In this document: in pieces, positions 1-64,000 of the stretch
Layout of the letters: the number at the start of each line of letters is the position of its first letter
Position numbering within the stretch: the first letter of the stretch is position 1
Virus record (IMG/VR): IMGVR_UViG_3300042259_000129
Length of the DNA: 64,000 nucleotides
Reading direction: 5' to 3' (one strand)
Source of the DNA: a virus
Taxonomy: Duplodnaviria; Heunggongvirae; Uroviricota; Caudoviricetes
The notes under the pieces: model-generated
The model's database searches: none
Told to the model about the DNA's origin: nothing
Seen by the model: the letters and a program-made list of their open reading frames with translations, nothing else
Position numbers and translations under genes: made by a program

Positions 1-2134
1 AATTATGAGAGATCCTTCAAATATCTGTGTCTAAAGTGGGTTCTTCTACATATGTAGAAGAATTTATTAAAACAAAAATTTGCTCGGGTTCATCCAAATA
101 CACTACTATATTATTTTCATCAACAATTTCAATTTCATCAGGAATTATAAGTTCATTAGTAGCATTATATACTTGGATATTAAATATAGATGAATTTAGA
201 TTATGATTTATAGCTAAAGATGATACCTCTCCTATAGAAGGAAAAACATTAATGTCATTTTTTTGAGTTATAACAGCGTATCCAGCAGTAGCCTCTCCAA
301 AATATACATTAGTTAAATAATTTTCAGGAACAGATATAATTTCACTTGGATATATTTTTTGAGAATTACTATCATAAAAAGAAATAAAAAAATTAGAACC
401 AAAAAAGTGATAGAATGTCCATAAGTTTGATGGTGTAGTTTGAAAATGCACCATAGTAAATTTAGTTTTTGCGACTTCTATATCAGTAGGTACTATAGAA
501 TAAGAATCCTCATCTATAACAGTGAATGTGTCCGGATTTTCAGCAAAATCGTCTTTGAAGAAATCAGAAATATAATATTTTGTATCGAATTCTTCAACAT
601 TTGTCTCAATAATTTTTCTAGCTGATGTTATAGATCTTTTAATAAAAGCAAATAAATTACCAATATAATTTAATTTAATTTTAATTCTATTAGAATCTAA
701 GATTGTAATAGCTTCGGGATTAATGAGGGAAAGTTCAAAACTATAACATTGAATAATTGGGGTATACGTATTTAAATTATGATTTATTATGTATTCATTA
801 GAAGAATTTATATTAAAATATTCTATATGAGTATCTGAAAAAGTAATATTTGTTGTAAAACTTTTTGAATTTAAAAATACTTCTTGACTTTTAGAATATA
901 GTGGAATATAATTAGTAGTTAAATCTGTTAAAGGAGATATAAAAATATTATAATCAGCAACTCGATTTAAGGGTCTAAAAAATTCTCAATATTCATATAC
1001 TTTATCTGCTAATGTCTTATTAAAAATCTCAGTTTTATGAATAGGTGCATTGGTTAGATCAATTTCAACCTTATATGCAGTAGATAAACATTTCGTATCT
1101 TGATTTACAGGATAATCAAAAGTGTTATATTTTTTAGTTCAAATATCATAATAAGAATTAGGTAATGGTTTGATAATATCATAGTATCCATACCAGGGAT
1201 GTTCTTCATATGATTCGTTAGGAATTTCCCCAATAATGGTCTTATCATGCCATTTTTCGTAAAAGTTGATTAAATTATTAGAGCCTTTAGTAAGCAATTT
1301 TCAAATAGATCTTAATGCGGTAAATGTTCCTTTTTTCTTTACAAGGTTAATAAGTTCAGCAACAAAGCTTCTTTTTGCTTGATCTTCAATATCTAAGTCA
1401 TCAACATTAATACCAAATACAGCAGACATTAATGCGAGATATTTATCGTCAATTTCATATGCATCATAAATACTTGGAATATTCTTTTCTAAACTATATA
1501 TTTCGTTAAATATATAATCAAAATTATAATATAAGAATTTAGTTAATTTATCTGTCCGTTGATGTTCAGGTATACAATTAATAATATAATCTGTTATTCC
1601 ATAATATTGAATGCTATACAAATCCTCTATATTAGATTTCTTGTAAATATTACCAAGGTAAATAAAGGGTTTATTTACATTAATATAATTTTCAATAATA
1701 AAATCTAGTGTTGTTTGGTCTTTAAAATAATCAGCTGCATTATTCGTAAGCCAAAGATAAAAAGGGCTATCCTTTCTAAAATAAAGTTGATCTCCTTCAA
1801 CCACTGATGTAGTACCAACTAGATCAAAAATTTTGAAATAATAATTTTCTCCAATAACTTCAGTAAAAGTTGTTGAAGGAACTGATGTTTGATCATTTTT
1901 AAAAATTGAAAATTCATTCCCATTGATCGAATCTATAGTTACCCAAATGGATCTATAACCAAAACTTTCATCCTTAACAAATAATTCCTGGACAGGAGCA
2001 CCCTTAGTTACTATTGAAGTCTTAGGGCCTATCAAAGATGTTGAGCTTGAAGGGGTCTGAGAATAGTACCCCTTCAAGATAGAAAAATATGTTGAAATTA
2101 GAAAATATGGTATATCTGAAAATTTACCTTGCAT
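1..2134 (-). CDS. Baseplate wedge protein, gp7-like by synteny (follows gp6). Partial: continues past the window start. Contains at least 4 in-frame TGA codons (at 17, 986, 1139, 1301).
   Basis: Frame-walk from 2134 down to position 2 finds no TAA/TAG in this frame, only TGA. Three fragmented ORFs in the track share this frame. It sits immediately downstream of the gp6-like gene. Confidence 0.5.
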
Positions 2135-2137
2135 AAT

Positions 2138-3946
2138 TTATCCTTCATTTAAATATTGACAAGCTTCATCTAATAAAATAGGAAATTGATTAAATCCAAG
2201 TTTAATAGGTCTTAAAAAGTTGTTATATGTAGAACTGAGTTCATCTATGGTATACTGAGGGAAATTCTTATCATAATTAGGTTCATAAATTACGGTCTGA
2301 ACTCCAGATAATGATGTTGTAAATGTGAAAATGTCTCTAATTACAAGATTTTCAATTCCTCTAACATTAGAAAACTTATCATCATCTGATACTTTAGATA
2401 TGTCTAAAATGTAATTGTGAATTTCCTTGAAGTCTATAATTTCATTGAAATTTCTATTAGCATCATCAAAATAATATTTTAGTTTGTTTTCAACATCTGT
2501 CTTAACATTGTTAAAATTATACATTCTTTTGACTTTGATTCCAATATCAAATCCGAAGTATACAAGATCTGGGATAACAAATGTTTCAAAGTTGTTTAAA
2601 TATCTTCTTGGTTCTAAATAAGATTTAAGAGTATTAACAAAATCGGTACTATATTCTTGAGGTAAATTAACCTCTGCAGTTAATCCTGGAGTAATAATCC
2701 AATCAATAGCAGATAATGAAATTGTACTAGTGTCCCAATGAGAAGGAATTAACGATAGATAAACTTTATTATATTCTCTAGTATCACCGGGATTAACCTC
2801 TTGTTCTCCCCATGCATTTGCTTTTACAACATCAGAATGAGTTTCTAGATGAGAAGTATAATCTGCACCAGTTACATTCCTATATTGTGATTCTAAAACA
2901 CCTAGTGTAGAATTAATAAGCTCTGTAATTGATTCAGGATTAGAAGCATTATAGGATTCAAATTCATTAGATATGCTAATAAGATCTTTTTCTACATTGT
3001 AATCCTTTGTAATATTTTTAATAAAATATGAATTGAAAGTATCAAAGGAATTTTCAACTAATATAGGAATTTCCTGAGTGTTTTCAAAATCACTAAAAGT
3101 AAATGCAGCAACAGAACCATCTTCACCCAATGTTTTAATAATAAAAATTCTAATTTGATCAGTTACAGCGGGAACATTATTAGCTGAAGAGAATCTAATA
3201 TTGTATTGACCAAACTTATTATAATCTAATCGGTAAATGTTATCATTTTCTTCAATATTAGAATAATCCTTAATGAAGTTATCAACTCTGGTTCATGGAG
3301 TTCCATTTACATATAGAACAATAGATGTATTGTCATCTGTGTATATACCATCATCAGAGATACCGTGATCAAAATTAAAGAAAGGAAGGAAAATTGTGTT
3401 ATTAATTACATCTTCCCCGGTATAGGAAAGTGTTTCAATACTGCCCTGAGTCAGTGTTAAATCAAATTCATATGATCCTACAGCAGACGGAGAAACTGTA
3501 ATAGTCGTGTCTTGAGTTGTTAAATAAACAATTTCTTCTCCTGTCGCATCATCTGTTAATCCAGTTGAAATTGGATATCAAGCAGGAATAAACAATTGAT
3601 CTCCAGGTTGAGGAATTCCTTCAACTCATGGATCTACAGTCACTTCAACTGTTAAATTAACTTTTGCTGAAGAATATCCTTTAGGGTAATATCCTCTAAG
3701 GTTTGCCATCATTGAAGCAGTTTCATAAACCTCAGTAGATTCTATGAACATATTTTTAGCAAGCTTATTTAGATAGTATACATTCATTTCAGAAAGATAT
3801 GAAAGTAACTCAATAAGCATTGTAATATTGGCACCTTCAAAATTATAATCTTTAAAAGTTTCTGAATTTTGAAGAATAGAAATAAGCTTTTGTTTTAATG
3901 TTAGAAAATCTGCTTCTAAATATGTGGGGGTAAGATCTATTGTCAT
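2138..3946 (-). CDS. gp6: Baseplate wedge protein gp6-like (Baseplate_J family). About 600 aa with several in-frame TGA.
   Basis: N-terminus MTIDLTPTYLEADFLTLKQKLISILQNSETFKDYNFEG...ANLRGYYP resembles the T4 gp6 N-terminus. ORFs 3626..3946 and 2138..3130 are in one frame, joined only by TGA codons. Confidence 0.7.
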
Positions 3947-3954
3947 GATTCTTC

Positions 3955-4329
3955 CTATAATTTATAAAGAATATTTGTATATTCTTGGATATTTAAGAAA
4001 TTTTTAATTTTATACTGCAAAGTTATATCATATGAATTATGATCATAATTAGGAGCAATTAGAAGATCTGTTATTTCGATTCTAGAGTCCCATGCAGTAA
4101 TAGATGAAAAAAGCTCATTACCTATTTCTAGTGCAGTAATTTCATCTAATGGTTCAAATAAATAATTATATATATTTATAGCAAAAAGAGGCATCATTCT
4201 TCTGGATCCTCTCATTGTTCTAAAAATATTATCCAGAGAATTTCTTACTGCATCTTCATTTGTCATATCATTTATATCACCATTATTTTTCTTATCTAAT
4301 GTGATATCTATATCTTTTCAAATTGCCAT
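3955..4329 (-). CDS. gp25: Baseplate wedge protein gp25-like (GPW/gp25 family).
   Basis: The motif TMRGSRRMMPLFAINIYNYLFEP...ITAWDSRIEI matches the T4 gp25 core (RKGSRPFDPEFG...LFE...VERNIESAVRNYEPRI). One TGA near the N-terminus. Confidence 0.75.
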
Positions 4330-5047: not shown

Positions 5048-6793
5048 TTAATTTAGATTAATAGTTTCAGCAGTTATATTACAGGTTCCTTTAACTTCGA
5101 TATCATAATTACCACCAATAACAATTTTCTTATTAGAACCGACTTGATCATATTGATTTGCTTTAACATATGAAGTTTTATTATTGTTAATAGTTTCGTT
5201 TTTATCTCGCTCAACTAATGAATAACTATTTTGTTCTGTTATTTCATATTTATTACCAGAGTTTCTAATAACCATATTACCTTCATAATCTATTTCTACA
5301 TAGGTATTGGAGGGATGAAAAATATGAAGTCTTTGTTTATTTGGTGTACTATCAATCTCAATAACAATCCCTGAGTGAGTTGCAATTACAGTGTTATGTG
5401 GATACTCTGGTGCATATGCTGGAGAAGGTTCATTTCAAGTTCCCTTGTTTTGAGCAAGCTCTATTCCAGTTTTTACATTTTCCTTTTTAATATCGAGAAT
5501 TGTATCAGACCCGTTTTCCCTAAAAAGTCTATGAGCAGAAGGTTCATTTAATCTTCTTACTGTAGGGTATTCTGCATTAGGATCTGTAAATCCAACATCT
5601 TCTTGTGAAGGGGGTTCATATCCTTCTTGAAATGATTTTTTAAAATCTGAATCAGATAAAGCAATATCTTTTTCAAAATCTTCAGCCGTTGCAGTAGCAA
5701 GCTCTTCTGGCATTTCTTCTTCAGCAGGGGGATTCGTAACATTAGCTTTTGCTAGTGCCATTCTATGTTCTGCTTGATATCTTTGAGTTACACTATTCTT
5801 TACTGCGGGACTTGAACTTTTAAAATACTTGTCTACATTTGATCTTTCACTATAACATCTATTAATAATTTCTTCATCTGACATATCATTTGTTACGCCA
5901 GCATTTTTCATTATTCTTTCTGCTCCAGCAGGTCCATGTTGAACACTCATAGACCAAATCATATCTTGTACACCAGCACTTCTTTCATTTGCATTAATTG
6001 AAGTTGACTGATTTATTTTATTAGCTGCAGTATCATAATAATTAGCTTTTACATATGCTTTTTCATAATTATGGAAATTATCTGCTCCTATTTGGTTTAC
6101 AGATTGTCTCCATGCTTCTGAATATTCAGGGGTACCTGGTGTTAATCCTTCAAAATTTGCTTGTACTTCAGGAGGTAACGTTGCTACGAAAGGTTCTACA
6201 GTTCCTCTATTAGATGCAAACTGATATGATCCATAAGAAACACCACCAGGATCACCTTGGCCACTTGAAACAGCATAAGGACCAGCAGATCCGGATTCTC
6301 ATCTTTTACTCAAAGATCCGAGTTCACTACTATTTTGGAATTCAATATCATCAGGATTATTTTGAACTCTATCATAGATCTTTTTTGAATTTTCCCGCAT
6401 TCGTGTTTTGTAATCTACAGAACCTTCTTTAGCATCAGAATCGAACTGTGGGCTTGTTGGCACACCAGGAATTGAAGCAAAAAATCTTGGTTTAAAAATA
6501 TGACCATTTTCAAAAAATAGAAATACTTGACTTCCTTGAACAGGAACACACCAAGACCCAAATCCAGATACACCGCCCTCCATTAATGAATATGCTGGTT
6601 CTGCTCATGGAAGTTCATCTGTAGGAATGCCTTCAAATTGAGTTTTTACTTTTACATCAGTATGAATACCAAAAATTCTAATTCGACATCTTCCCCGTTT
6701 TTCTGGGTCATTGTTATCCTCGATGACCCCTCTCCAAATTCCAGAAATCTTTTCTGAACTTGGTTGAAATTCCATTGGATCATTTCTAATCAT
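5048..6793 (-). CDS. gp5: Baseplate hub and cell-puncturing device gp5-like. N-terminal OB fold, a central putative cell-wall hydrolase domain that is not T4-lysozyme-like, and a C-terminal beta-helix needle. Three in-frame TGA.
   Basis: The N-terminus DNNDPEKRGRCRIRIFGIHT...GIPTDELP[TGA] aligns with T4 gp5 DPKRLGRVRVRVVGLHP...GIPTEKLPW. The C-terminus has VxGxxxV-type repeats typical of the needle. Confidence 0.85.
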
Positions 6794-8405: not shown

Positions 8406-9179
8406 TTACCTCGAAGTCCTTATAATTCCACCCTGACTAAAAGTAGACCTATACAAAGGTTCAATATCTCTAAAAATAATAGTCAAATCACATAAACTAT
8501 AATAATTATTAATGATTGGACCCTTTCATAATGGAGCAATGTTGATAATTGCTGCATTTTTAACATTTATAATTTCTGATCCTACTGTATATACTTGAAA
8601 TATATAGGGGAAATTAATTAAAATAGTATCATCAGCCATTTCAGGGCATGTTAATTTTTCAAGTTCTCTAATAGGTTTTACTAAATTATTATATGGGTCT
8701 CCAGTCATATCCATCATAGGGATAGTTAAAGAATATTCCAAACGAGTAGAATCCTTATAAACCATAGCTGTATCTACTCTATAAGAGGGAACATCTACTT
8801 TAGCAGATTCTTGAACAGCTGATGATACTACTCTTTTGATAGTTTCTGTTGATGCAAAACTCTGACCTTCGTTAGGTTTTAGGCCCCCATATCCACCACC
8901 AACCGCATTTTTAACGCCCTGAAAATCTGTAAGTGCTGTGTGAATTTCTCCTACTTTAGAAGAAAGTCTACTTGCAAGACTTTCATACGTTTCCCAGCTA
9001 TGGGATACGTTTTCCTGTAGTTCTTCTGGTGCACAAAAAGTTCATGTATTTCTATCAGATTCATCAACATTGAGCTGATTTGCTCCACGTGCATATGCGC
9101 GTTGTGAAGTCAATTTTTTAGATACAAATTTTATTTTTACTAGATTTGTAAATGGTACTGGGACTAAATCATATTCCAT
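8406..9179 (-). CDS. Hypothetical tail or baseplate protein, about 257 aa, with 2 TGA.
   Basis: A continuous frame from ATG 9179 to TAA 8406. The start overlaps the upstream stop (TAATG). Confidence 0.5.
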
Positions 9180-21579: not shown

Positions 21580-21594
21580 TAAAGGAACAAAACT

Positions 21595-37638: not shown

Positions 37639-37696
37639 TATCTGGCGCCAATTTTAAAAACTCCTTTTTATAAATAAAATAAAAGGGAGTTTTTTG

Positions 37697-45722: not shown

Positions 45723-45736
45723 TTTTAAAGTAATCA

Positions 45737-52745: not shown

Positions 52746-52753
52746 GATAAACT

Positions 52754-53461: not shown

Positions 53462-53958
53462 TGGGCTGCACTACTTTAAATATAGCTTCTGGAAATAACT
53501 TTCAATTATATTTCCCTGTTTTACCTTTTTCTACTGAATTACAAGACAGTAAGGAACTAACACTAAATCTGTTCAATGTTGTTATTCCTAGTATGTCATT
53601 TGACAGTACACCAATAAGTTGGCAGGGATGAGACACAAAAAGAGCAGATGGAACTTTACTTTTTGCAGACTTCACTTTTGATTTCATGATTGATGAAGAA
53701 TTCAAAAACTGACAAGTTCTTTTTGATTGAATGACAAACATCAACAACAATAAAGATGTATTAAGTAAGCACCCCAGAACTTATACTACAGATTCTTATA
53801 TTATGATTATGGATAATTTTGGAAAAAGTATTTTAAAATTAAAATTGATAAATTGTTTCCCTATGGATTTGGGAACAGTAACATTATCTTATAGAGAGGG
53901 TGAAACTTACATTGAATGTAATGCAACAATTTCTTATGATAGAATGGAAAGAGGATAA
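53461..53958 (+). CDS. Tail-tube-fold protein, paralogue of gp19 (gp3- or gp54-like), with 3 TGA.
   Basis: FADFTFDFMIDEEF...LINCFPMDLGTVTLSYREGE parallels the gp19 FEDWTVTF...LIGAWPTTIGELTLDY pattern. Confidence 0.55.
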
Positions 53959-54021: not shown

Positions 54022-55962
54022 ATGAGTTTCGGAATTTCGCCGGGCGTGGCGACGAGGGAAGTGGATCTAAGCACCACAATTCCTGCAGTAGCAACTTCTA
54101 TTGCTGTAAACGTCCTAAGAAAAACATACAAAGGCCCTGAATACGAACAGTATTTAGTAACAAATACAGATGAACTTATTGATGCATTTGGTAAACCTGC
54201 TGATAGTTCTTTTATTGATATTCTGTCTTCTGCAGGATATCTTAAATATGGAAGCATGCTCTATTGTACAAGGGTTATGCCTACTGATGCTACTTTTGCT
54301 GGTACAAAAATTTTAACTGGAACAAATTCTACCCAGGAAGCCACTGCTAACTTCACTTTTGAAGCTACTGGAACTGTTGAAGGAACTGAAGATGATGGTC
54401 CTTATACCTATACCTCATTAGGAACAACTGATATGAAGATGTTCCCTGAAATGGTAGACACTTTAATGGGTGAAGATGACCCACTTTGGGTACTTGCTAA
54501 ATATCGTGGTGAATTTGGAAACAATACTCGTTTACTTGTTTATGACAAGGCCACATATGATGCTGTTAAGTATTTTGATACACAGACTGAAACATTTGAT
54601 ATTCCTTCTGGCGTATCTTTAACTGCTTCAGCTACGGCAGCAGTATCTGGAATGTGGGTAGATTATGAAGCTAATCCCGATTTTGGAACTCCTGGTTACC
54701 AGGATGATCTTCCATTTGTTGTAATTCGTGATCTCGATACTCCTATGACTGATGAAAAACAATTCACAATCGTAGTCCAAGCTAAAGATCAGGGTTCAAC
54801 AATATGGGAAGACAAAGAGGTCTTCATTGTTTCTTCTGATGAAAATTCAATTGATGATTCCGGCGTTTCTAATTTTGTTGAGACTGTTGTAAATGAACAG
54901 TCAAAGTATATTAATGTAGCTTTGAATCCTGTCTTTAAAACAACTACAGAAATTGATTCGCCCGCGATTGGGGCCATTATGACTCGTATGGCCACCCTTT
55001 CTGGTGGAAAGAATGGTGTATTTGGAAGACATGAAGATGTAACTGTTCAGGCTGGTGAAGATGCTGCTTGTATTGAAGCATATAATCTTTATGCTAATCC
55101 TGAAGAAATTGATGTCAATCTCTTTATCGAATCAGATAAGGGTGTAACTGTAAAAACCTACCTTGTAGAGCTTTGTGAATCAATTCGTAGAGATTGTTTT
55201 GTTGTACTTGATGTTCTAAGATCCCATGTTCTAAACAACAAAGGTTCTGAAACATTAGATATGGTAAAATGGAGAAAAGGACAAGCTGGTTCTACATTTA
55301 ATCCTAATACTTCATATGCTGCTCTATATGGTAACTGGATCGAAGTATTTGATACTTGGAACAAAAAATATCGTTGGCTTCCTCTCTCCGGTCATATGGC
55401 TGGTCTATATGCTCATACAGATGATGTAGCTGATGCATGGTGAGCACCTGCTGGATTGAATAGAGCTATTCTAACTGGTGTTCGTAGACTTGCTTTTAAT
55501 CCTACTGAAGGAAATCGAGATGCAATGTATGTTGCAGGAATTAACCCTGTTGTTTCTTTTAGTGGTCAGGGCAAAGTAGTTTGAGGACAGAAGACCCTAT
55601 TAGATAAACAGAGTGCATTTAATAGAATTAATGTTCGCAGGTTGTTCCTCATATTGGAAAAAGCCATCGCAAAAAGTGCCAAATACTTTTTATTCGAGAT
55701 GAACGATGAAATTACTTGGATGTTAATGACCAATATGATTGAGCCTTTCCTTCGTGATATTCAGGGCCGCCGTGGCATTTATGCCTTCAAGGTCCAGATT
55801 GATGAAACAACTAATACCCCAGAAAGAATTGATCGTAACGAGCTAGTTGGGAATATATGGATCCAGCCCGCCAGAGCAGTCGAGTTTATCCGGCTTAACT
55901 TTATCGCAACAAAAACTGGGGCTAACTTCGATGAACTAATTGGAGCAGGTGCGGTTTCTTAA
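54022..55962 (+). CDS. gp18: Tail sheath protein gp18-like, 646 aa, with 2 TGA.
   Basis: The C-terminal 200 aa align closely with T4 gp18 (RWLPLSGHMAGLYAHTDDV...INVRRLF...IDRNELVGNIWIQPARAVEFIRLNFIATKTGANFDEL versus RWVPLAADIAGLCARTDNV...INVRRLF...IDRNEFVATFYIQPARSINYITLNFVATATGADFDEL). Confidence 0.9.
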
Positions 55963-56098: not shown

Positions 56099-58051
56099 AT
56101 GATTATTTGTTGAGACAATCTAGAAAAACATAATATTAAATTAAGCAATAGAGGAAATTTTAGAGGTAATGATGGTACATATTATTATCATGATTTATGT
56201 CTAGAATGTGGTGAGCCTTTTTTAAGTAAAGGAAAACATAATATACAATATTGTTCATATGAATGTATGACTAAGTCTCAAATATATAGAGAAAAAATTG
56301 GAAATGAAAAAGCACTTCTTAATGAATCTACTGATATTATATTAACAAAAGAGGAAATTTTAGAATTAAGAGTTAAATACCCCAAAAGATATATTAAAAT
56401 ATTAAAAAACAAATATCCAAAAACAATACAACAAATAGAATTGTTTTTTAATGACATTAAATCCAATATTACTAACAGTATATTATCTCAAAAAATATTC
56501 CATTATGTTTTTAATTTAAAAAATATTCCTGTATGCCCTCTTTGTGGAAATATATTACCATTTAACACATTATTAGAGTCATGGGGATATAGAAAATTTT
56601 GTTCAAGAATATGTGCTATAAATAATCCAGATTTAATAAGAAAACGTGATCCTAACCAAGATGTTAAAAAGGAAAGAAATAATAGAGGAATTAAAATTTT
56701 AAAATCTTCAGATATTAAAGTTTATTCATTAGAAAGAACCAATAAAATTTTTCTTTTATTTTTAGCTAAATTCAATTATGATTTTCAAAATGTTGCCATA
56801 AAAATTCTTAACAAGTCCCCAAAATTATATAAAAGTATAAACATCTATTATGCGGATTTTACTCATAGAGAAATATATTACCTTATTCTAAATAATAATC
56901 CAAAAGAAAGAATATGTTATATTTGTAAAAAAGAGAAAACACCATTATTAAGAAATGGTTATAGAAGCTATTGTACTAATTGTGGAAATAAACATAGTAA
57001 TATTATTGCGAGATTTAAAAAATATCCATTAATATATAATTATTGTAAAGATAATGATTATGAAATGATAGCATCTAGATATGAATTTGCTCTTAGTCCT
57101 CTAAAAACGACCGATGTTAAATGTTTAAGATGTAAAAATATCAGACCATTATCTATAGAATTAATAAATAAAGGAGTTTCTTGTTCCTGTAGAGTTAAGG
57201 GAGGAACTAGTAAGGCAGAAAACGAAATAGCAAAATTTTTGAATATTAATCATCGCAGGGGAAATAAAGAAATTTTAGATGGTCTTGAGATAGATATCTT
57301 TATTCCAAATTCCAATTTGGGGATTGAATATGATGGTATATATTATCATTCTGAAATTTCAGGAAATAAAAATAAAAAATATCATATAAATAAGACAGAT
57401 ATTTGTGATGAAAATAATATTCAACTTATTCATATATTTGAAACGGAATGGAAAGATAAACAATCTATAGTTAAATCTGCACTTCTTTCTAAGTTGGGTA
57501 TTTTTGAAAATAGAATATATGCTAGAAAATGCGAAATAAGATCTCTTACTTTTGAAGAATCTAATATCTTTCTTCTTCAAAATCACCTCCAAGGATATTG
57601 TAATTCGTCTATTAGATATGGGCTTTTTTATAATGATGAACTTGTTTCATGTATGACTTTTGGTAAGAGAAAAATAACAGGAAAAACTAAACTTGAGCTT
57701 TTAAGATTTTGTAATAAACTTAATACACAAGTCATTGGGGGAGCAAGTAAATTATTTAAACACTTTGTTAGAAACAATGAATTTGAAGAAATAATTTCCT
57801 ATGCAGATCGTAGATGGTCTAATGGTAATTTATATGAACAACTTGGGTTTGAATTTAGTCATAAGAGTGCTCCGTCCTATTGGTACATTATTAATGGGAA
57901 GTTGGTACATAGATCCGTTTATATGAAACATAAATTACCAAGTTTATTAAAGGATTTTGATCCTAATCTTACTGAATGGGAAAATATGCAAATGAATGGA
58001 TTTGATAGAATTTGGGATTGTGGGTGTTTAGTTTATAGGTATGCAAGGTAG
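56099..58051 (+). CDS. Multi-zinc-finger protein with a Vsr/DUF559-like (PD-(D/E)XK) endonuclease-type domain. About 650 aa with 1 TGA.
   Basis: At least six CxxCG...C knuckles (CLECGEPF..CSYEC, CPLCGNILPF..CSRIC, CYICKKE..CTNCGNK, CLRCKN...). The core LEIDIFIPNSNLGIEYDGIYYHSE...IQLIHIFETEW is the same domain family as the C-terminus of 37697..39187. ATG 56099 is upstream of track ORF 56267, in frame across one TGA. Confidence 0.55.
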
Positions 58052-58957: not shown

Positions 58958-60199
58958 TTACGGCATTTCCGTAATAACGCTACGGATATAGTAATTTTCG
59001 GCGCCAAAGATATTGCTATGAAGGGCATATCGGCTCATTAGACCTATTGTGGGGTTGAATGAGTTCTCAAAAGTTGCTCTGCTTAATAGAAGTTGAATAA
59101 ATGGGCAATAAATTATTCCGGCATCCATACCTGAGCCGCCAGCACCCTTGTAACCAACAGTTAGTTCGTCTACAGTAGCGAAAGTATCACGGATAACTTT
59201 CATACGACCGTCTAGTGTACCAATGATTTCAACAGAGGTATTAGCAGTGTTTACATTACCAGATACAGGAGCAATTGTGAAACTGGAAGTTCCTTCAAGA
59301 GCTGCGCATACAGTAGGATTAGCAACTACGAAGTTACCAGCACCACGACGGGTTGTGATAGCAATGCGGTTAGCCATACGAACGGTACGATTGTAAAGGT
59401 TACGATATTTTTCATGTTCCCAGCGGCCATCAAAATGAGCAGAAGAAGCCCAAGATAGAGTGCCGAGCTGACCATCTACATAAGAGTAAGCATTGGTATT
59501 AGCAGCAGTTTTTACAGCATCAATGATTTCACGGTCAATTTCAGCCTGAATTTCATAACCAAGGATATCAAGCATTTCAGATTCGATGTCAAGACCATGC
59601 ATAGCATTAAGATCCTGAGCAACTTCTAAGGACCAGCGGCTGCGTAGCTTACGGGTCTTAGCTTCAATCTGAGCTTTTTCGATGGTTAGGTTAACTTCCT
59701 TGATCTGATCGCCAGTACCAATACCTAGACCAACAGCAGGAGAAGTACTAGAACCTAGAATTTCACCAGCAGAAGTAACCATAGAGCCAGTGTATGACTT
59801 ATCTACAGTGTTGTAACCAAGTTCAGTGTTAGAACCAGAGTTGTAAGTCTGACCAGCGCGGAAACGAAGAGCGAAAGCTAGACCAACAGGGGAGGTCATA
59901 GGCTGAACACCAACGGTTTCGTGAGCAATTAGATTAGGGAAAGTTCTACGAACCATGGGAATAGCAATCTTGTGGAATTCACCAGAAGTTGCATAGTTAG
60001 AGCCAAAAGAACCATCTGTATAAGATGCTTCATTAACCATATTCTGTTCTTTTAGATAATTGAACTCATTCTCAAGCATAATAGCTGTCATGGTTTCAAT
60101 TTTATTATCTTTAATCTTGCCTACCTTGGCAACGACTTTTTCCTCGTTGATAAGTGGATTCCACTTTTCTACTAGCTGATTAACGTTAATTTTAGACAT
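58958..60199 (-). CDS. gp23: Major capsid protein gp23-like.
   Basis: LVEKWNPLI, MVRRTFPNLIAHETVGVQPMTSPVGLAFALR and TVGYKGAGGSGMDAGIIYCPF match the T4 gp23 hallmark segments. 413 aa with no TGA. Confidence 0.9.
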   Translation of the reverse strand: MSKINVNQLVEKWNPLINEEKVVAKVGKIKDNKIETMTAIMLENEFNYLKEQNMVNEASYTDGSFGSNYATSGEFHKIAIPMVRRTFPNLIAHETVGVQPMTSPVGLAFALRFRAGQTYNSGSNTELGYNTVDKSYTGSMVTSAGEILGSSTSPAVGLGIGTGDQIKEVNLTIEKAQIEAKTRKLRSRWSLEVAQDLNAMHGLDIESEMLDILGYEIQAEIDREIIDAVKTAANTNAYSYVDGQLGTLSWASSAHFDGRWEHEKYRNLYNRTVRMANRIAITTRRGAGNFVVANPTVCAALEGTSSFTIAPVSGNVNTANTSVEIIGTLDGRMKVIRDTFATVDELTVGYKGAGGSGMDAGIIYCPFIQLLLSRATFENSFNPTIGLMSRYALHSNIFGAENYYIRSVITEMP

Positions 60200-60237
60200 T
60201 TTATTAAATTCCTCCTAAGAATTGTTCCTTATAAATT

Positions 60238-60245
60238 TATTTATA
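60238..60245 (-). promoter_or_regulatory. Late promoter (TATAAATA on the minus strand) for gp23. Part of a 45-bp promoter-plus-RBS cassette duplicated at 61438.
   Basis: AAATTCCTCCTAAGAATTGTTCCTTATAAATTTATTTATA is present upstream of both gp23 and gp22. Confidence 0.6.
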
Positions 60246-60430
60246 GTTTCTAATTTTCAATTTAGAAATTAGATTTTTGGCTTTGGTAACTATAAATTGC
60301 CAAATAGATTTTTTAAAATCAAATAATGCCTAGTATTGATTATACATAATTTTAATAATATTTTTAAAAGAATACCATTCTTTTAAAGTTTATTATGTAT
60401 ATATCTATTTATATTTTTTCGTTTTAAGTT

Positions 60431-61399
60431 TTAGATAAAGTTAAGATATTTAGAAACGAAAGAGTTATCCTCTTCCTTTTCTTCTGTGATTAGGGGTGTT
60501 GCAACACCATCGCCTTCAGCTTCAACTAGATCAGGATATTCTTTCTTAAGTTCTTTTCTATCCCAACCACCATCTTTAAGTAGCCATTCTACAGCAGTCT
60601 TTTTGTCTTTTGCATCAAAAGATACTTCAGACTCAGATACTGCTTTAGCAGATACACCAGCTTTCTTTAATTCGGAAACTGCCTTTTTAGGATCAACTAC
60701 TTTTACTGTTACCATCTTTTCAGTAATAACTTCTTCCTCTGTTAGAGTATCAACAATGATATCAAACTTCTTGTCAATAACTTCTTTATCAGTGATACCT
60801 TCAAGGATGGAGAAAACTTTTTCCTTCTGGGATTCAGTTAGACCTTCACACTTCTCATAAATATAAAGGGTGACTGAAGCTTCATGAAGTAGCTGCTTTC
60901 CGTTTAAGAATTTTTCTGTTAAATGATTCTTTTCATCACGGAGTTTTAGAATTTCATCTTTAGCTTCGGAAAGAAGAGACTTAGCTTCTTCATTGACTAG
61001 ACCTTCATCAATACCAAGACGAACCTTAAACTGCTCAATTAGATCGGAGTATAGTTCACCCTTACGAGCAAATTCCTTGATGTTTTCGGGGATCTGAAGT
61101 TTTTCAGCAAGAATATCATCTACGAAAAGAGAAAACTTTTCAGCAAGAGTGTCCTTATAAGTTTCAAACTTCTCTTCATATTCCTGTACAAGCTCTTCCT
61201 TTAAAGAAGTTTTTTCTTCTTCAAGAGCAGCCTCAACCATTTCTTTGGCTAGAACCTCAGCCTTTTCCCTGGAAAGCTCTTCGACTTTCTCATCTACTTT
61301 AGTATTGATAAGATCAGAGATCTTTGTTTCTACTTCGGTAACTACAGACTCATCAAGAGCTTCAACACCAAGTAGTTTGGTAATGTCCTTAATATTCAT
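60431..61399 (-). CDS. gp22: Prohead core scaffold protein gp22-like.
   Basis: Highly acidic E/K-rich coiled-coil protein lying between gp21 and gp23. Confidence 0.7.
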   Translation of the reverse strand: MNIKDITKLLGVEALDESVVTEVETKISDLINTKVDEKVEELSREKAEVLAKEMVEAALEEEKTSLKEELVQEYEEKFETYKDTLAEKFSLFVDDILAEKLQIPENIKEFARKGELYSDLIEQFKVRLGIDEGLVNEEAKSLLSEAKDEILKLRDEKNHLTEKFLNGKQLLHEASVTLYIYEKCEGLTESQKEKVFSILEGITDKEVIDKKFDIIVDTLTEEEVITEKMVTVKVVDPKKAVSELKKAGVSAKAVSESEVSFDAKDKKTAVEWLLKDGGWDRKELKKEYPDLVEAEGDGVATPLITEEKEEDNSFVSKYLNFI

Positions 61400-61705: not shown

Positions 61706-62293
61706 CTAGATGTTTTTAGAAATCTGATCGATTACTTGAAAAATCCTCTTTCTATATTCTTGTTTAGCTTGTTCAATAAGCTTTTCTTGATTAGAAGTAC
61801 CAAAATCTACACCCTCTAACACGCCATTAACCCAGCTCCCCAAGTTGGATGGTTGGCTAACAATGTCCCAACAAATTAGATTAAAGTCTTCATTAACATG
61901 ATTTGTTTTTTCGTTTACAGTTCCAAGACCACGAGAGCTAATACCAATTCGAGCACCATCTTCAATTAGATTTTTTACAATCTGGCCACATGGAGTTGAA
62001 AGAACTTTTGCTTTTCCCATGACATGATTTCCCTCTCAAACAAGGTCCTCAATTAAAATAGCAGCACGCTCAAGGGTAATTGTATTTGAAGAGGGGTGTT
62101 CAAGTTCACCTAAAGCAGATTTATTTGAAATATTTTCTCTAAGCTTATCTACTTCTCTTTCAAGAATTCGCTTTGGGTAAATTCGGCCGTTGCGATTTCT
62201 TTCTTCAGCAGTTGAAAAAATTCCCTCAATAAAAAGAGACTTTTCGCTCTTCTTTGTTGAAATATTATATGTTGTTTCCGTAATAAGTTTCAC
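61706..62293 (-). CDS. gp21: Prohead core protease gp21-like, with 1 TGA and a GTG start.
   Basis: ERNRNGRIYP, GELEHP and IGISSRGLGTV match T4 gp21 (ERNRNGRVY, YLDHP, LGISSRGLGSV). GGAGG ribosome-binding site before the GTG. Confidence 0.85.
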
Positions 62294-62614: not shown

Positions 62615-63004
62615 TCAAAGTTCTCTATATTGGAGAGATTTTTGTCTTTCTAGTTCCAAAAATTCCTTTAGTGCATTAATAGTATTTATATGAAGATTAA
62701 CTAATGTTTCCTGTTCCAATGCTACTTTCTTGTATGTAATAGCAATTTCTAAAAGGGCCCCTATTTTGGCATATTCCTGAGGACTAAGTAAAATGAATTT
62801 TGCTTGCTCAATAGGTACTTCTTTAAATCTATCATCCAAATAAATTGGATTTATCTTGTCTGGCTTCTTAATAGGTGATAAATCCAATTTATATTCAGTG
62901 GTCTTTTCAAATTTAATTTCGGGGGGCTGAAAGGGTTCAAAATGCTTTGGAGCACACCCAACAAAAAATAAAATTAAACAAATAAACAAAATTACTTTTT
63001 TCAT
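62615..63004 (-). CDS. Putative lipoprotein.
   Basis: MKKVILFICLILFFVGC lipobox. Confidence 0.5.
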   Translation of the reverse strand: MKKVILFICLILFFVGCAPKHFEPFQPPEIKFEKTTEYKLDLSPIKKPDKINPIYLDDRFKEVPIEQAKFILLSPQEYAKIGALLEIAITYKKVALEQETLVNLHINTINALKEFLELERQKSLQYREL

Positions 63005-63006
63005 TA

Positions 63007-63321
63007 TAGTTCGTCTCATCCTGTATCTATTCTGTCTTGGACTGTTTTAATGTCTGAATCTTTTTTTGCAGCTTTAACTTTCTCCGCTCCATCCTTAATG
63101 ACTGTATTAACATTTTGCGTTTGATAGTCTGCTGCCTCCTCTTCTTTTGAAATATTAGGATGCACATATTCATCTTCAGAGACCTTGTCTAAAATCGGTT
63201 TAGAAGGAATATTGACTTTACCTTCTGGCCTCTTAGAGAATAAAGATCTAAGGAAGATTGCCCCTATAGCAAGTATTACTGTTCATACAGCAACAAAAAA
63301 CGGTTTGATTTCAAATTTCAT
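63007..63321 (-). CDS. Small membrane protein with 2 TGA. Possibly a gp67-like prohead core protein.
   Basis: Transmembrane segment TVILAIGAIFL. Starts at the portal stop (TAATG). Confidence 0.4.
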
Positions 63322-64000
63322 TACATATCCTCCTCTTCTCCAATGCCAAATAATTCTTTATCAAGTTTAAATCCTTCGGCATTCGCCTTTAGATCATCAT
63401 CATCCATATCAAGATATTTTTTCATAAGATATGATTTTGAAAATTCTGCATTTGAAACAAGAGAATTATAGTTGTTAAATCTTGTTTCTCTTCCTTTCTG
63501 CTCAATTTGATCTTTATATGAATTTGGGCAATTCATAGTAATAGCAAATGAGTATTCATCTAATCCATATTGTTTTAATAATCCTTTGAATTCAAGATGA
63601 ATTAAAAATGTTTTTAGAAGCATCCTACAAAATTTGTCCTGTTGATTTTCCAAAAACACAGATCATTTGATTTCATCTCTAGGGATTTCCCCAAAATTTG
63701 ATCCACCACCAAATAGATTATCGCCACTTCTATTGTCCTGAGTATTCTGAACTCGGGTGATAGGATATTTTAGTGCTTTGTATAGTTTCTTTTGAAAGTA
63801 ATAAATATCACCCAATTCAGCAAATCCTGAAGGGTTACCCCCTACTGTAGAAACCGAACTTGCTCTACCTGAGCTAGATGTAGGTAAGAAAAAATTCTCA
63901 CTAATTGACATTACATTTGTTGCTTTTTTCAATAGCCCAGTTTCAGGATCAAATGATTCTTTTGTTGAAAGCTTTTGTTTCATTTTTTCAACAAACTGCA
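63321..64000 (-). CDS. gp20: Portal protein gp20-like, C-terminal part only (partial at the window edge). With 1 TGA.
   Basis: Position immediately upstream of the gp67/68-21-22-23 module. Track ORFs 63663..63983 and 63321..63659 are in frame across a TGA. Confidence 0.6.

What the first reader, a model, noticed from the sequence alone, without database searches (positions are those of the whole stretch)
1..64000. T4-like phage that reads TGA as tryptophan (genetic code 4)
TGA is a sense codon here, not a stop. Most large genes carry in-frame TGA while TAA and TAG cleanly end genes. In four independent orthologue alignments the TGA falls exactly on a Trp of the T4 protein. These are gp5 (PTDELP-TGA versus PTEKLPW), UvsX (AGAG-TGA-CTNV versus KNGWYARE), UvsW (VGH-TGA-DGKIY versus YGNWDGRI) and gp15 (RMIN-TGA-KLNF versus RIEWSLTF). 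This favours Trp (code 4) over Gly (code 25). TGG is also used for Trp. Every recognised T4 core gene spanned by a TGA is intact only under this reading. A free-standing HNH endonuclease and the TnpB gene also carry in-frame TGA, so they have adapted to this code. A T4-like myovirus using code 4 implies either a code-4 host (Mollicutes-like) or a phage that recodes TGA with its own suppressor tRNA. No tRNA-Trp(UCA) lies in this window. Standard-code gene callers will badly fragment this genome.
Basis: partly seen in the sequence, partly recalled or inferred. Interest (0 to 1): 0.9.

Follow-up and report, generated by a model that had tools for sequence, protein, structure and literature searches.

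The report
T4-like phage reading TGA as tryptophan
This 64-kb piece of an uncultured T4-like phage uses the stop codon TGA as a tryptophan codon, mostly in its late genes, a kind of recoding already described in gut phages; no suppressor tRNA that could explain it was found.

Summary
Treating TGA as sense raises non-overlapping ORF coverage of the window from 75% to 93%. TAG-sense and TAA-sense controls give 78% and 82%. About half of the genes (43 of 85) carry in-frame TGA, 114 codons in all, and every gene ends in TAA or TAG.

TGA means Trp, not Gly. It aligns with Trp in standard-code relatives, in T4, and in 98-100% of distant terminase homologues and 91-98% of UvsW homologues at conserved sites. 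It interchanges mainly with TGG in close relatives.

The phage is a distant T4 relative, at most 46% sheath identity to any cultured phage. I extended it to 143 kb from identical public contigs. TGA supplies 46% of Trp codons in late and structural blocks but 11% in replication and early blocks (2% in window block 25.9-36.6 kb). That matches published recoded gut phages.

No tRNA(UCA), RF1 or TrpRS was found in the 143 kb or in recoded relatives covering the rest of the genome circle. Peptidoglycan hydrolases argue against a Mollicutes host.

The most likely reading is recoding driven by the phage in a standard-code host, by an unidentified agent. This is a new member of a known kind.

The parts
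1..64000 (.). Whole window: part of a T4-like phage genome of about 160-165 kb in which TGA is a sense (Trp) codon and only TAA and TAG terminate genes
   Evidence: ORF coverage is 75% under table 11 and 93% with TGA as sense. 43 of 85 genes carry in-frame TGA. The window is 100% identical to public contigs.
2138..3946 (-). gp6-like baseplate wedge protein, 3 in-frame TGA
   Evidence: tblastn hit to T4 gene 6. Pfam Gp6-like_1st.
3955..4329 (-). gp25-like baseplate protein, 1 TGA
   Evidence: tblastn hit to T4 gene 25. Pfam GPW_gp25.
5048..6793 (-). gp5-like central spike with a VgrG3-like peptidoglycan-hydrolase middle domain, 3 TGA
   Evidence: TGA codon 63 aligns with W of T4 gp5 (PTEKLPW). 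Residues 157-344 match VgrG3 structures 4noo and 4nso.
9179..10828 (-). 549-aa glycine- and phenylalanine-rich baseplate-module protein, function not assigned, 6 TGA and 5 TGG
   Evidence: Gene list. Called whole only when TGA is read as sense (L055).
15874..17103 (+). TnpB (IS200/IS605-type) with 1 in-frame TGA inside the DAD-X-NASINIA motif
   Evidence: Pfam Cas12f1-like_TNB on copies in relatives. A second copy lies in the same genome (L078:5977-7158). The X column is W/TGA or L in the other copies.
20001..20468 (+). gp4-like head completion protein, 5 TGA
   Evidence: tblastn hit to T4 gene 4. Two TGA align with W of T4, and three align with W in a standard-code relative. TATAAATA motif directly upstream.
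20473..21582 (+). Free-standing HNH endonuclease, 7 TGA and 3 TGG
   Evidence: Pfam HNH. TGA codon 237 aligns with W in 7 of 7 standard-code homologues.
23892..25435 (+). gp55-like late sigma factor (23892-24449, 1 TGA) and gp47-like nuclease subunit (24449-25435, 2 TGA); neither uses TGG
   Evidence: tblastn hits to T4 genes 55 and 47. gp47 TGA codon 123 aligns with W of T4 and of the relatives.
25920..36576 (+). TGA-poor block: about 21 small genes, two tRNAs and gp46 (34103-36130). It has 1 TGA against 52 TGG and no late-promoter motif
   Evidence: Block E. No TATAAATA between 22724 and 37160. gp46 hit to T4.
28486..28641 (+). tRNA-Arg(TCT) at 28486-28563 and tRNA-Met(CAT) at 28567-28641, the only tRNAs in the window
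   Evidence: ARAGORN. Rfam at gathering threshold and at E<=1.
36589..37638 (+). UvsX recombinase, 3 TGA
   Evidence: PDB hits to UvsX and RecA. TGA codon 294 sits opposite W289 of T4 UvsX.
37694..39187 (+). 497-aa repeat-rich endonuclease-like protein in which all 9 Trp codons are TGA (0 TGG)
   Evidence: Gene list and translation. TATAAATA motif directly upstream.
39779..43984 (-). 1401-aa protein of unknown function, 7 TGA and 11 TGG; the longest ORF appears only when TGA is read as sense
44304..45737 (-). UvsW helicase, 3 TGA
   Evidence: Among the best 150 cluster representatives, TGA codon 47 is W in 135 of 138 and codon 204 is W in 139 of 148. Codon 376 is variable (I 71, W 28, V 22). 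T4 alignment.
48177..48980 (+). gp13-like neck protein, 4 TGA
   Evidence: Pfam Phage_T4_gp13. Three TGA columns are mostly W in standard-code relatives.
52077..53958 (+). Neck and tail module: 222-aa protein (3 TGA), gp15 (52754-53461, 2 TGA) and gp19-like tube protein (53461-53958, 3 TGA)
   Evidence: Pfam T4-gp15_tss and Phage_TTP_2. Five TGA columns are W in 5-6 of 5-6 standard-code relatives, and one tube column is G in 5 of 5. gp15 against T4.
54022..55962 (+). gp18 tail sheath, 2 TGA and 10 TGG
   Evidence: tblastn against cultured phages and T4. Pfam Phage_sheath_1.
56099..58051 (+). 650-aa zinc-finger-rich protein with a C-terminal segment like that of the 37694-39187 protein; inferred from sequence to be a homing endonuclease; 1 TGA
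   Evidence: Translation. No Pfam hit.
58958..61399 (-). gp23 major capsid protein (58958-60199) and gp22-like scaffold (60431-61399); both are late and highly expressed, yet have no TGA
   Evidence: Pfam Gp23 and T4_CASP. T4 hits. TATAAATA upstream of both.
61706..62293 (-). gp21 prohead protease, 1 TGA
   Evidence: The TGA codon aligns with W in 22 of 22 standard-code relatives and in T4.
63321..64000 (-). gp20 portal protein (continues beyond the window end to 64874), 1 TGA
   Evidence: The TGA codon aligns with W in 21 of 21 standard-code relatives. Pfam Portal_T4.

Best explanation
**What is shown.** The window belongs to an uncultured, distant T4-like myovirus. Its genome is about 160-165 kb at 31% G+C. 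I reconstructed 143 kb of it. In this genome TGA is translated as tryptophan and only TAA and TAG stop translation.

The recoding is uneven. TGA supplies about 46% of Trp codons in the late, structural and lysis blocks and in homing endonucleases. It supplies about 11% in the replication and early blocks. It is absent from the most highly expressed head genes, gp23 and gp22.

**What is inferred.** The host most likely uses the standard code and has a peptidoglycan wall. The infected cell is probably switched to reading UGA as Trp during infection, as proposed for recoded gut phages. Genes that avoid TGA can then be expressed before or independently of the switch.

**What is unknown.** The agent of the switch was not identified. 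No tRNA(UCA), RF1 or TrpRS was found. Candidates are:
- a tRNA in the roughly 17-20 kb of this phage not seen;
- a non-canonical tRNA;
- host or phage tRNA-Trp(CCA) read-through combined with interference with RF2.

**Separate confidences.** TGA = Trp in a T4-like phage: about 0.97. Recoding driven by the phage in a standard-code host: about 0.55-0.6.
For: **TGA is a sense codon.**
- ORF coverage rises from 75% to 93%.
- 114 in-frame TGA lie in 43 of 85 window genes; no gene needs TGA as its stop.
- The base after in-frame TGA looks like that after sense codons (T 23%). After true stops T is 43% and C 2.5%.

**TGA means Trp.**
- Against standard-code relatives: W in 120 of 189 cells, G in 6. 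Seventeen positions are mostly W and two are G. The TGG baseline is 189 of 234 W.
- Terminase C-terminal part: TGA 188 aligns with W in 100 of 100 homologues below 60% identity, and TGA 439 in 98 of 98.
- UvsW: W in 135 of 138 and 139 of 148 representatives.
- Against T4: W at 8 of 19 TGA positions, G at none.
- Codon level against close recoded relatives: own TGA pairs with TGA 80, TGG 32, other 17. Relatives' TGA pairs with own TGG 46 and other codons 4.

**The phage is T4-like.** tblastn hits to T4, Pfam families and gp43, gp41, gp44, gp45 and topoisomerase in the left arm.

**Recoding is uneven.**
- Early-like blocks have 32 TGA and 253 TGG; late-like blocks have 154 and 179 (Fisher p = 2e-22).
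- The T4 late-promoter motif TATAAATA is enriched (24 against 14.8 expected). It sits in front of TGA-bearing late genes and is absent from the TGA-free block.
- The endolysin and its membrane-protein neighbour lie inside the early region yet carry 5 TGA against 2 TGG.
- The TGA share of 33% is far below the 69-83% A-ending share of other two-fold codons.

**The host has a wall.** GH108 + PG_binding_3 endolysin and a VgrG3-like hydrolase domain in gp5.

**Precedent.** Borges et al. (10.1101/2021.08.26.457843) report the same pattern. Only 35% of their code-4 phages had a detectable suppressor tRNA, and the predicted hosts use the standard code.
Against: **No code-change machinery was found.**
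- No tRNA(UCA) in the 143 kb: ARAGORN at default and relaxed settings, and Rfam at E<=1.
- None in recoded relatives covering the unseen arc, L084, L100, L103, L113 and L114.
- No RF1, RF2 or TrpRS was recognised: Pfam was run on 17 selected proteins of the window and left arm, the other genes were only read by eye from their translations, and the one release-factor-related hit is a GGQ-only RF-1 domain protein.

**Some genes needed early or mid-infection contain internal TGA.** These are gp41 helicase, gp55 late sigma factor, gp47 and UvsX. A strict late-only switch therefore does not fit.

**No sign of competition with RF2.** TGA shows no avoidance of the strong-termination +4 U context.

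**Walled bacteria with UGA = Trp now exist in the literature.** The family JAKLIH01 in Patescibacteriota is one (PMC13092985). The relatives come from a landfill, so such a host is conceivable.

**The host was not identified.**
Confidence: 0.6

Rival explanations
1. The host itself reads UGA as Trp (a code-4 bacterium). The phage simply follows its host and needs no suppressor machinery.
For: - No tRNA(UCA), RF1 or TrpRS was found in the phage or its recoded relatives.
- Internal TGA occurs in gp41, gp55, gp47 and UvsX.
- The +4 context of TGA is like that of sense codons.
- Other recoded relatives have TGA as 76-94% of Trp codons, near mutational equilibrium.
- A walled code-4 lineage, JAKLIH01 in Patescibacteriota, has been described (PMC13092985).
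Against: - The early-versus-late asymmetry is strong: 11% against 46%, p = 2e-22, and 2% in window block E.
- gp23 and gp22 have no TGA.
- The overall TGA share is 33% where 69-83% is expected from A/G bias.
- Peptidoglycan hydrolases exclude wall-less Mollicutes.
- A 165-kb T4-like myovirus in an ultra-small CPR cell would be unprecedented (own knowledge).
- The MAG labels (Shapirobacteria and others) rest on contigs that are themselves phage-like.
Confidence: 0.25
2. TGA encodes glycine (code 25), as in phages of Gracilibacteria and Absconditabacteria.
For: Two TGA columns align with Gly in relatives: tube protein codon 57 (5 of 5) and gp4 codon 66 (1 of 1). GGA-to-TGA is a single substitution.
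Against: - G accounts for only 6 of 189 cells against standard-code relatives and 0 of 19 against T4.
- Invariant Trp columns in terminase and UvsW are encoded by TGA.
- TGA interchanges with TGG 78 times and with GGN 2 times.
Confidence: 0.01
3. TGA is a genuine stop. The apparent long genes are pseudogenes, or result from frameshifts, assembly errors or programmed read-through at a few sites.
For: None specific. A few TGA lie within the last 5% of an ORF and could be real stops followed by a nearby TAA or TAG, for example 29822-30076.
Against: - 114 in-frame TGA lie in 43 genes without any change of frame.
- The identical sequence appears in about 20 independent contigs from several samples.
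- TGA columns are conserved as TGA or TGG across relatives.
- Homology continues directly across the TGA.
Confidence: 0.01
4. UGA is decoded by tRNA-Trp with the normal CCA anticodon rather than by a tRNA(UCA). This could be a phage-encoded or host tRNA made permissive, for example by a D-arm variant, a modification or C34-to-U editing, together with weakening of RF2. This is one sub-mechanism of the best explanation.
For: - The recoded relative L114 carries 14 tRNAs including tRNA-Trp(CCA), with a U11-A24 pair and no tRNA(UCA).
- G24A is the Hirsh change that lets E. coli tRNA-Trp(CCA) read UGA (PMC13092985).
- The phage group encodes tRNA-processing and repair enzymes: a CCA-adding enzyme in relatives, RNA ligases (named by eye from their translations, not tested) and RlaP.
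Against: - The closest relatives' tRNA clusters (L100, L113) have no tRNA-Trp at all.
- A24 is common in natural tRNA-Trp (PMC13092985).
- No RF2 antagonist was identified.
- Nothing was tested functionally.
Confidence: 0.2

Closest known systems
TGA-to-Trp (code 4) recoded gut phages: the 'Agate' and 'Jade' clades of Borges et al. (bioRxiv 10.1101/2021.08.26.457843; published 2022)
   Same: - In-frame TGA aligns with Trp.
- The genome is large (Agate about 127-154 kb) and low in G+C.
- Structural and lysis genes are recoded while the replication machinery is mostly standard.
- A homing endonuclease is preferentially rich in TGA.
- Close standard-code relatives exist.
- The suppressor tRNA is often undetectable (35% of code-4 genomes had one).
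   Different: - The one relative sample that could be traced is a municipal landfill biofilm, not an animal gut; the window's own samples were not identified.
- This phage is explicitly T4-like. Whether Agate phages are T4-like could not be checked because no sequences were available to me.
- Some early and middle genes (gp41, gp55, gp47) also carry TGA.
Phage T4 and distant T4-like myoviruses (Pelagibacter phage HTVC008M, Methylophilales phage Melnitz, cyanomyoviruses)
   Same: - Shared core genes: gp23, gp20, gp18, gp19, gp5, gp6, gp25, gp13, gp15, gp21, gp22, gp4, gp2, gp17, gp43, gp41, gp44/45, gp46/47, UvsX, UvsW and gp55.
- The TATAAATA late-promoter motif.
- Many homing endonucleases.
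   Different: - All cultured members use the standard code.
- Sheath identity is at most 46%.
- gp5 carries a VgrG3-like hydrolase instead of T4 lysozyme.
TAG-to-Gln (code 15) recoded crAss-like and Lak phages, validated by metaproteomics (Peters et al., PMC9523058)
   Same: A stop codon is reassigned in late genes of phages whose hosts use the standard code.
   Different: - A different codon and amino acid.
- A different phage lineage.
- Those phages commonly carry suppressor tRNAs.
Bacteria with UGA = Trp (Mycoplasmatales, insect endosymbionts, Patescibacteriota family JAKLIH01; PMC13092985) and their phages
   Same: TGA is read as Trp and is not used as a stop.
   Different: - In those genomes the reassignment is genome-wide and RF2 is lost. 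Here TGA is concentrated in late genes and is under-used overall.
- Mollicutes lack the peptidoglycan that this phage's hydrolases target.
Code-25 (TGA = Gly) phages predicted on Absconditabacteria (Borges et al.)
   Same: TGA is a sense codon in phage genes.
   Different: TGA columns here are Trp, not Gly.

Membership tests
Stop-codon-recoded phage using TGA = Trp (code 4) | In-frame TGA in conserved genes, and coding density restored when TGA is read as sense | tested here: met
   Coverage rises from 75% to 93%, while the TAG-sense and TAA-sense controls give 78% and 82%. 43 of 85 genes carry TGA. Table-11 calls fragment the genes.
Stop-codon-recoded phage using TGA = Trp (code 4) | TGA columns align with Trp in homologues that use the standard code | tested here: met
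   Examples: terminase 100 of 100 and 98 of 98; UvsW 135 of 138 and 139 of 148.
Stop-codon-recoded phage using TGA = Trp (code 4) | TGA is not used as a terminator | tested here: inconclusive
   All 204 genes can end in TAA (156) or TAG (48). About 20 TGA lie in the last 5% of an ORF. Several of these are shown to be sense by homology, but a few, such as 29822-30076, could be real stops.
Stop-codon-recoded phage using TGA = Trp (code 4) | Phage-encoded suppressor tRNA(UCA) or other code-change gene (RF1, TrpRS); frequent in the family but not universal | tested here: not met
   None was found in the 143 kb of this phage or in relatives covering the rest of the circle. About 17-20 kb of this phage itself was not seen.
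Stop-codon-recoded phage using TGA = Trp (code 4) | Recoded codon enriched in late, structural and lysis genes | tested here: met
   46% against 11% of Trp codons, p = 2e-22. Late-promoter motif distribution. The lysis pair is recoded inside the early region.
T4-like myovirus (T4 core gene set) | T4-type head, neck, tail and baseplate genes | tested here: met
   tblastn hits to T4 genes 2, 4, 5, 6, 15, 18, 19, 20, 21, 23 and 25. Pfam Gp23, Portal_T4, T4_CASP, Peptidase_S77, T4-gp15_tss, Phage_T4_gp13 and T4_baseplate.
T4-like myovirus (T4 core gene set) | T4-type replication, recombination and late-transcription genes | tested here: met
   gp46, gp47, gp55 and UvsW; UvsX. Family-B DNA polymerase is supported by precomputed Pfam on the orthologues of relatives. 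gp41, clamp, clamp loader and topoisomerase in the left arm were named by eye from their translations. gp32 was seen only in relatives.
T4-like myovirus (T4 core gene set) | Placement in an ICTV family such as Straboviridae by genome-wide relatedness | not testable with these tools
   The best cultured-phage sheath match is at most 46% identical. No phylogeny was made.
Phage of a wall-less code-4 host (Mollicutes) | Uniform TGA use, and no need for peptidoglycan-degrading enzymes | tested here: not met
   TGA use is uneven. The phage has a GH108 + PG_binding_3 endolysin and a VgrG3-like hydrolase in gp5.
Code-25 phage (TGA = Gly) | TGA columns align with Gly | tested here: not met
   G in 6 of 189 cells and 0 of 19.
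'Agate' clade of Borges et al. | Terminase phylogeny or ANI grouping with the Agate genomes | not tested
   Agate sequences are not in the collections I could query. The resemblance is in genome size, recoding pattern and the TGA-rich endonuclease only.

The most novel reading that the evidence does not exclude
This T4-like lineage, found in landfill-type samples, reads UGA as Trp without any phage-encoded tRNA(UCA).

That would leave two possibilities:
- The phage reprograms decoding by a route not yet described for phages. Examples are making a tRNA-Trp(CCA) permissive (a Hirsh-type D-arm, a modification or C34 editing) while disabling RF2.
- The phage infects an as yet unrecognised walled bacterium with a native UGA = Trp code, possibly among the Patescibacteriota.
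Probability: 0.3. Interest if true: 0.8.

Novelty: new member of a known kind. Interest (0 to 1): 0.45.

Why it matters
**Practical consequences.**
- Standard annotation pipelines shred this genome and its relatives. The JGI calls do exactly that.
- Proteins, host-range genes and taxonomy for this whole group of environmental T4-like phages are therefore wrong in public databases.
- Some contigs are even filed as CPR or archaeal MAGs.

**Biological consequences.**
- The finding extends TGA-to-Trp recoding from gut phage clades to a T4-like lineage with relatives in a landfill biofilm.
- Related lineages range from standard code through about 50% to about 90% TGA. That graded series is useful for studying how a stop codon is captured.
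- The well-known T4 early/middle/late programme gives a framework for testing whether recoding times late and lysis gene expression.
- The apparent absence of a suppressor tRNA sharpens an open question: how do most code-4 phages make the cell read UGA?

Tried and rejected
1. **Suppressor tRNA search.**
   - I walked from the window along identical IMG/VR contigs, using all 8 viral scans, to build a 143-kb composite.
   - I then used the metagenome scans, two homologue searches and contig look-ups to view the remaining arc in four recoded relatives.
   - ARAGORN (default, relaxed, and with introns) and Rfam at E<=1 found only tRNA-Arg(TCT) and tRNA-Met(CAT) in this phage.
   - The relatives have Ala, Leu, Tyr, Thr, Pro or Glu tRNAs; L114 has a 14-tRNA set including Trp(CCA). 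None has anticodon UCA.
   - Relaxed ARAGORN hits were all inside coding regions with other anticodons and were discarded.

2. **This phage's own missing 17-20 kb.** The exact proteins at its edges are not on record, so I could not reach it.

3. **Host prediction from TnpB.**
   - A single-protein scan of GTDB genomes found nothing.
   - An alignment scan found 49-58% hits only in MAG contigs that look like mis-binned T4-like phage.
   - I rejected these as host evidence.

4. **Code-change proteins.** Pfam on 17 selected proteins of the window and left arm gave no RF1, RF2 or TrpRS, and translations of the other genes read by eye showed none. The only release-factor-related hit is a 116-aa GGQ (RF-1 domain) protein next to RlaP and two genes that look like RNA ligases. 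I read that as an RNA or ribosome repair module, not a code-change factor.

5. **+4 context of TGA.** I looked for selection against RF2 recognition and found no signal.

6. **Spurious ORFs in my first list.** The greedy longest-ORF list contained antisense shadow ORFs: 30306-30833(-), 58697-58897(-), 19109-19882(-), 15538-15804, 25624-25836 and 27679-27906. A codon-usage-scored set replaced them.

7. **Other readings of TGA.** Selenocysteine, Gly and frameshift or pseudogene readings were considered and rejected on the alignments.

8. **Origin of the window's samples.** The JGI sample numbers of the window's own contigs (33000422xx) could not be traced in the literature. Only the relative's sample, 3300028601, was traced, to a landfill biofilm.

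Full report

The window is 64 kb at 30.6% G+C. I chose ORFs greedily, longest first and without overlap. They cover 75% of the window under table 11 and 93% when TGA is read as sense. The controls are much lower: 78% with TAG as sense and 82% with TAA as sense (the same pattern with a different cut-off).

Under the TGA-sense reading the genes are tightly packed in long same-strand runs, and every one ends in TAA or TAG. My first ORF list held some antisense shadow ORFs, so I replaced it with a gene set scored on codon usage. That set gives 85 genes overlapping the window. Of these, 43 contain in-frame TGA: 114 TGA against 175 TGG.

The same DNA exists at 100% identity in about 20 public contigs from several samples. 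JGI's table-11 gene calls break gp5, sheath, portal, protease and others into pieces. The Logan calls on the same sequence give whole proteins: a 581-aa gp5, a 646-aa sheath and a 235-aa gp15. Sequencing error, frameshifts and pseudogenes are therefore excluded.

**2. Which amino acid does TGA encode?**

Five independent comparisons all point to Trp.

- **Standard-code relatives.** The capsid protein pulled 46 related IMG/VR loci. Some are recoded and many use the standard code. Against the standard-code ones, window TGA codons align with W in 120 of 189 cells and with G in 6. Seventeen positions are mostly W and two are G. Ordinary TGG codons align with W in 189 of 234 cells.
- **Phage T4.** W is found at 8 of 19 TGA positions and G at none.
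- **Terminase.** This gene lies just beyond the window's right end in the same phage. TGA 188 and TGA 439 align with W in 100 of 100 and 98 of 98 homologues below 60% identity.
- **UvsW.** Among the 150 best cluster representatives from an exhaustive HMMER search, TGA 47 is W in 135 of 138 and TGA 204 is W in 139 of 148. The third site is variable: I 71, W 28, V 22.
- **Codon-level comparison with close recoded relatives.** This phage's TGA pairs with TGA 80 times, TGG 32 times and anything else 17 times. The relatives' TGA pairs with this phage's TGG 46 times and with other codons 4 times.

Two further points fit. The base following in-frame TGA has the composition seen after sense codons (T 23%), whereas true stops are followed by T in 43% of cases and by C in 2.5%. 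Counting TGA as Trp also brings the Trp content from 0.96% to 1.42%.

Gly (code 25), selenocysteine and read-through of a few special sites are not tenable.

**3. What is the element?**

It is a distant T4-like myovirus.

- tblastn against T4 finds genes 2, 4, 5, 6, 15, 18, 19, 20, 21, 23, 25, 46, 47, 55 and uvsW.
- UvsX is found through solved structures.
- Pfam families fit the same picture.
- The sheath is at most 46% identical to any cultured phage. The best matches are Pelagibacter, Methylophilales, Stenotrophomonas, Vibrio and cyanobacterial T4-likes.

I walked along public contigs identical to the window and built a 143,288-bp composite. The window occupies positions 73090-137089, and every overlap is 100% identical. 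The left arm holds:

- clamp, clamp loader, topoisomerase and gp41-type helicase, named by eye from their translations, and genes that by eye look like primase, NAD-dependent ligase, ThyX, dUTPase and two RNA ligases;
- a family-B DNA polymerase, supported by precomputed Pfam on the relatives' orthologues;
- a β-glucosyltransferase homologue (Pfam);
- many small genes.

A closely related contig of 164,754 bp, with a capsid protein 89% identical, comes from JGI sample 3300028601. That sample is a municipal landfill biofilm. The window's own samples could not be traced.

**4. The anatomy of the recoding**

TGA use is very uneven. In blocks rich in replication and small early-type genes, TGA supplies 32 of 285 Trp codons (11%). 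In window block 25.9-36.6 kb, which holds the two tRNAs and gp46, it supplies 1 of 53. In the fibre, baseplate, neck, tail, head and terminase blocks and in a six-gene sugar-enzyme cluster, it supplies 154 of 333 (46%). Fisher's test gives p = 2e-22.

- **Late promoters.** The T4 late-promoter motif TATAAATA occurs 24 times against 14.8 expected. It sits directly upstream of gp23, gp22, sheath, gp13, gp4 and others. It is absent between 22.7 and 37.2 kb.
- **Lysis genes.** A GH108 + PG_binding_3 endolysin and the membrane protein next to it lie inside the otherwise TGA-free early region. They carry 5 TGA against 2 TGG.
- **Homing endonucleases.** These are the most TGA-rich genes: 7 TGA in the HNH gene, 9 TGA and no TGG in 37694-39187, and 10 TGA against 1 TGG in the terminase part that carries an intein and a GIY-YIG domain.
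- **Exceptions in both directions.** gp23 and gp22 have no TGA, while gp41, gp55, gp47 and UvsX do carry internal TGA.
- **Distance from equilibrium.** Overall TGA is 33% of Trp codons, whereas A-ending codons make up 69-83% of other two-fold A/G pairs. The reassignment is thus either young or selected against.
- **Relatives.** Other recoded relatives range from 48% to 94% TGA. Standard-code relatives use TGA for only about 14% of their stops.

**5. How does it work?**

This pattern is the one described by Borges et al. for recoded gut phages (10.1101/2021.08.26.457843):

- Late and lysis genes are recoded while the replication genes stay standard.
- A homing endonuclease is preferentially rich in TGA.
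- Close standard-code relatives are depleted in TGA stops.
- The predicted hosts use the standard code.
- A suppressor tRNA is detectable in only 35% of code-4 genomes.

I therefore favour the same model: a standard-code host whose translation is switched during infection.

*Evidence about the host.* The host has a peptidoglycan wall. Besides the endolysin, gp5 carries a VgrG3-like peptidoglycan hydrolase domain. That argues against Mollicutes.

*The weak point.* I could not find the agent of the switch.

- ARAGORN (default, relaxed and intron modes) and Rfam at E<=1 over the whole composite find only tRNA-Arg(TCT) and tRNA-Met(CAT).
- The arc I could not reach in this phage runs from gp32 through a tRNA cluster and NrdD/NrdG to the terminase. 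I examined it in four recoded relatives.
- Three of them carry tRNA clusters. L100 and L113 have Ala, Leu, Tyr and Thr plus Pro or Glu. L114 has 14 tRNAs including Trp(CCA). L103 has none. No relative has a tRNA(UCA).
- No RF1, RF2 or TrpRS was recognised. Pfam was run on 17 selected proteins only. The single release-factor-related hit is a 116-aa GGQ domain protein next to RlaP and two genes that look like RNA ligases, probably an RNA or ribosome repair module.

*The rival.* A host that natively reads UGA as Trp stays alive as an explanation, at about 0.25. It accounts for the missing machinery, the TGA in early genes and the ordinary +4 context. A walled UGA = Trp lineage in Patescibacteriota has also just been described (PMC13092985). 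It does not account for the early-versus-late asymmetry, the TGA-free major head genes or the low overall TGA share.

*A lead worth testing.* The tRNA-Trp(CCA) of relative L114 has a U11-A24 pair. This is the pair created by the Hirsh G24A mutation, which lets E. coli tRNA-Trp read UGA (PMC13092985). But A24 is common in nature, and the closest relatives lack any tRNA-Trp.

**6. Comparison with what is known, and verdict**

It is a new member of a known kind, not a new kind. Stop-codon recoding in phages, including TGA-to-Trp with a late-gene bias, is published. TAG-to-Gln recoding has been validated by proteomics (PMC9523058).

What is new here:

- The lineage is T4-like. My full-text search for a T4-like phage with an alternative code found only the Borges paper, which mentions T4 in another context.
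- The one relative sample that could be traced is not a gut sample.
- The search for a suppressor tRNA was unusually thorough and came back negative.

Whether the phage belongs to the 'Agate' clade could not be tested.

Interest is moderate at 0.45. It would be high if the absence of a suppressor tRNA is confirmed and a new decoding mechanism or a new code-4 host lineage lies behind it.

Noticed in passing
window 15874-17103 (+); second copy at L078:5977-7158 (-); relatives L100:1193-2374 and L103:1946-3124 and 7351-8532: A TnpB-only IS200/IS605-type element is present in at least two roughly 95%-identical copies in this phage genome and in several copies in relatives. It is therefore actively spreading within T4-like phage genomes. 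The nearest 'bacterial' homologues (49-58%) sit in MAG contigs labelled Shapirobacteria, Peribacteria or Woesearchaeota. Those contigs look like mis-binned T4-like phage; one 95-kb contig also encodes a T4-like terminase.
   Followed up: partly
L048:69-3538 (-), equivalent to window coordinates about 66.7-70.1 kb, just right of the window: The large terminase gene is split into two overlapping ORFs (701 and 461 aa). It is interrupted by Hint/intein segments and a GIY-YIG/NUMOD3 endonuclease, which may form a split intein. It has 15 TGA against 6 TGG, the heaviest recoding seen.
   Followed up: no
window 37694-39187 (+) and 56099-58051 (+): Two large free-standing endonuclease-like genes share a C-terminal segment. 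The first contains about ten tandem 'YGEEEGTRRYNEW'-type repeats and encodes every Trp with TGA (9 TGA, 0 TGG). Neither has a significant Pfam domain.
   Followed up: partly
L078:2457-2807 (+), about 60.5 kb left of the window in the same phage: A 116-aa protein consists of a release-factor GGQ (RF-1) domain only, like ArfB or PrfH. It lies directly upstream of an RlaP RNA-repair nucleotidyltransferase, near two genes that look like RNA ligases. This looks like a phage RNA or ribosome repair module. It has no TGA.
   Followed up: partly
L114:988-4442 (Logan SRR32971145_5545), a recoded relative: A cluster of 14 tRNAs includes tRNA-Trp(CCA) at 2751-2826 with a U11-A24 D-stem pair, the Hirsh-suppressor configuration, and no tRNA(UCA). 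Closer relatives (L100, L113) have only five tRNAs at this position and no tRNA-Trp.
   Followed up: partly
L100:2949-5774 (contig Ga0265295_1000108) and L113:2168-3496: Relatives encode a CCA-adding tRNA nucleotidyltransferase. In L100 it is split by a NUMOD3 homing endonuclease. L103 retains only a remnant.
   Followed up: no
L103:12486-13382 (GCA_029972165.1, JARKUL010001232.1): A 900-nt stretch with no ORF lies between the terminase module and the NrdG/NrdD genes. Its central 600 nt are richer in G+C. It has no Rfam match at E<=1 and no homologue in the other loci. It may be a structured RNA.
   Followed up: partly
window 5048-6793 (-): The gp5 spike protein keeps the T4 OB-fold and β-helix parts, but in place of the T4 lysozyme domain it has a VgrG3-like type VI effector peptidoglycan hydrolase (PDB 4noo and 4nso, E about 5e-21).
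   Followed up: partly
window 22724-37160: No TATAAATA (T4 late-promoter motif) occurs in this 14-kb stretch. There are 24 in the whole window against 14.8 expected, many of them directly upstream of late genes.
   Followed up: partly
loci L024, L029, L032, L036 and L039 (IMG/VR samples 33000350xx-33000369xx): A second group of relatives has capsid proteins 54-57% identical and 24-28% G+C. It is much more deeply recoded: TGA is 61-94% of Trp codons around the head genes, and table-11 ORF coverage is only 54-71%. That sits near mutational equilibrium, so it is either an older reassignment or a true code-4 host.
   Followed up: partly
L076:5400-7900, about 46-48 kb left of the window: A stretch of about 2.5 kb has only poor, low-scoring ORFs and locally higher G+C (up to 41%). 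No tRNA or Rfam family was detected. It is unexplained.
   Followed up: partly
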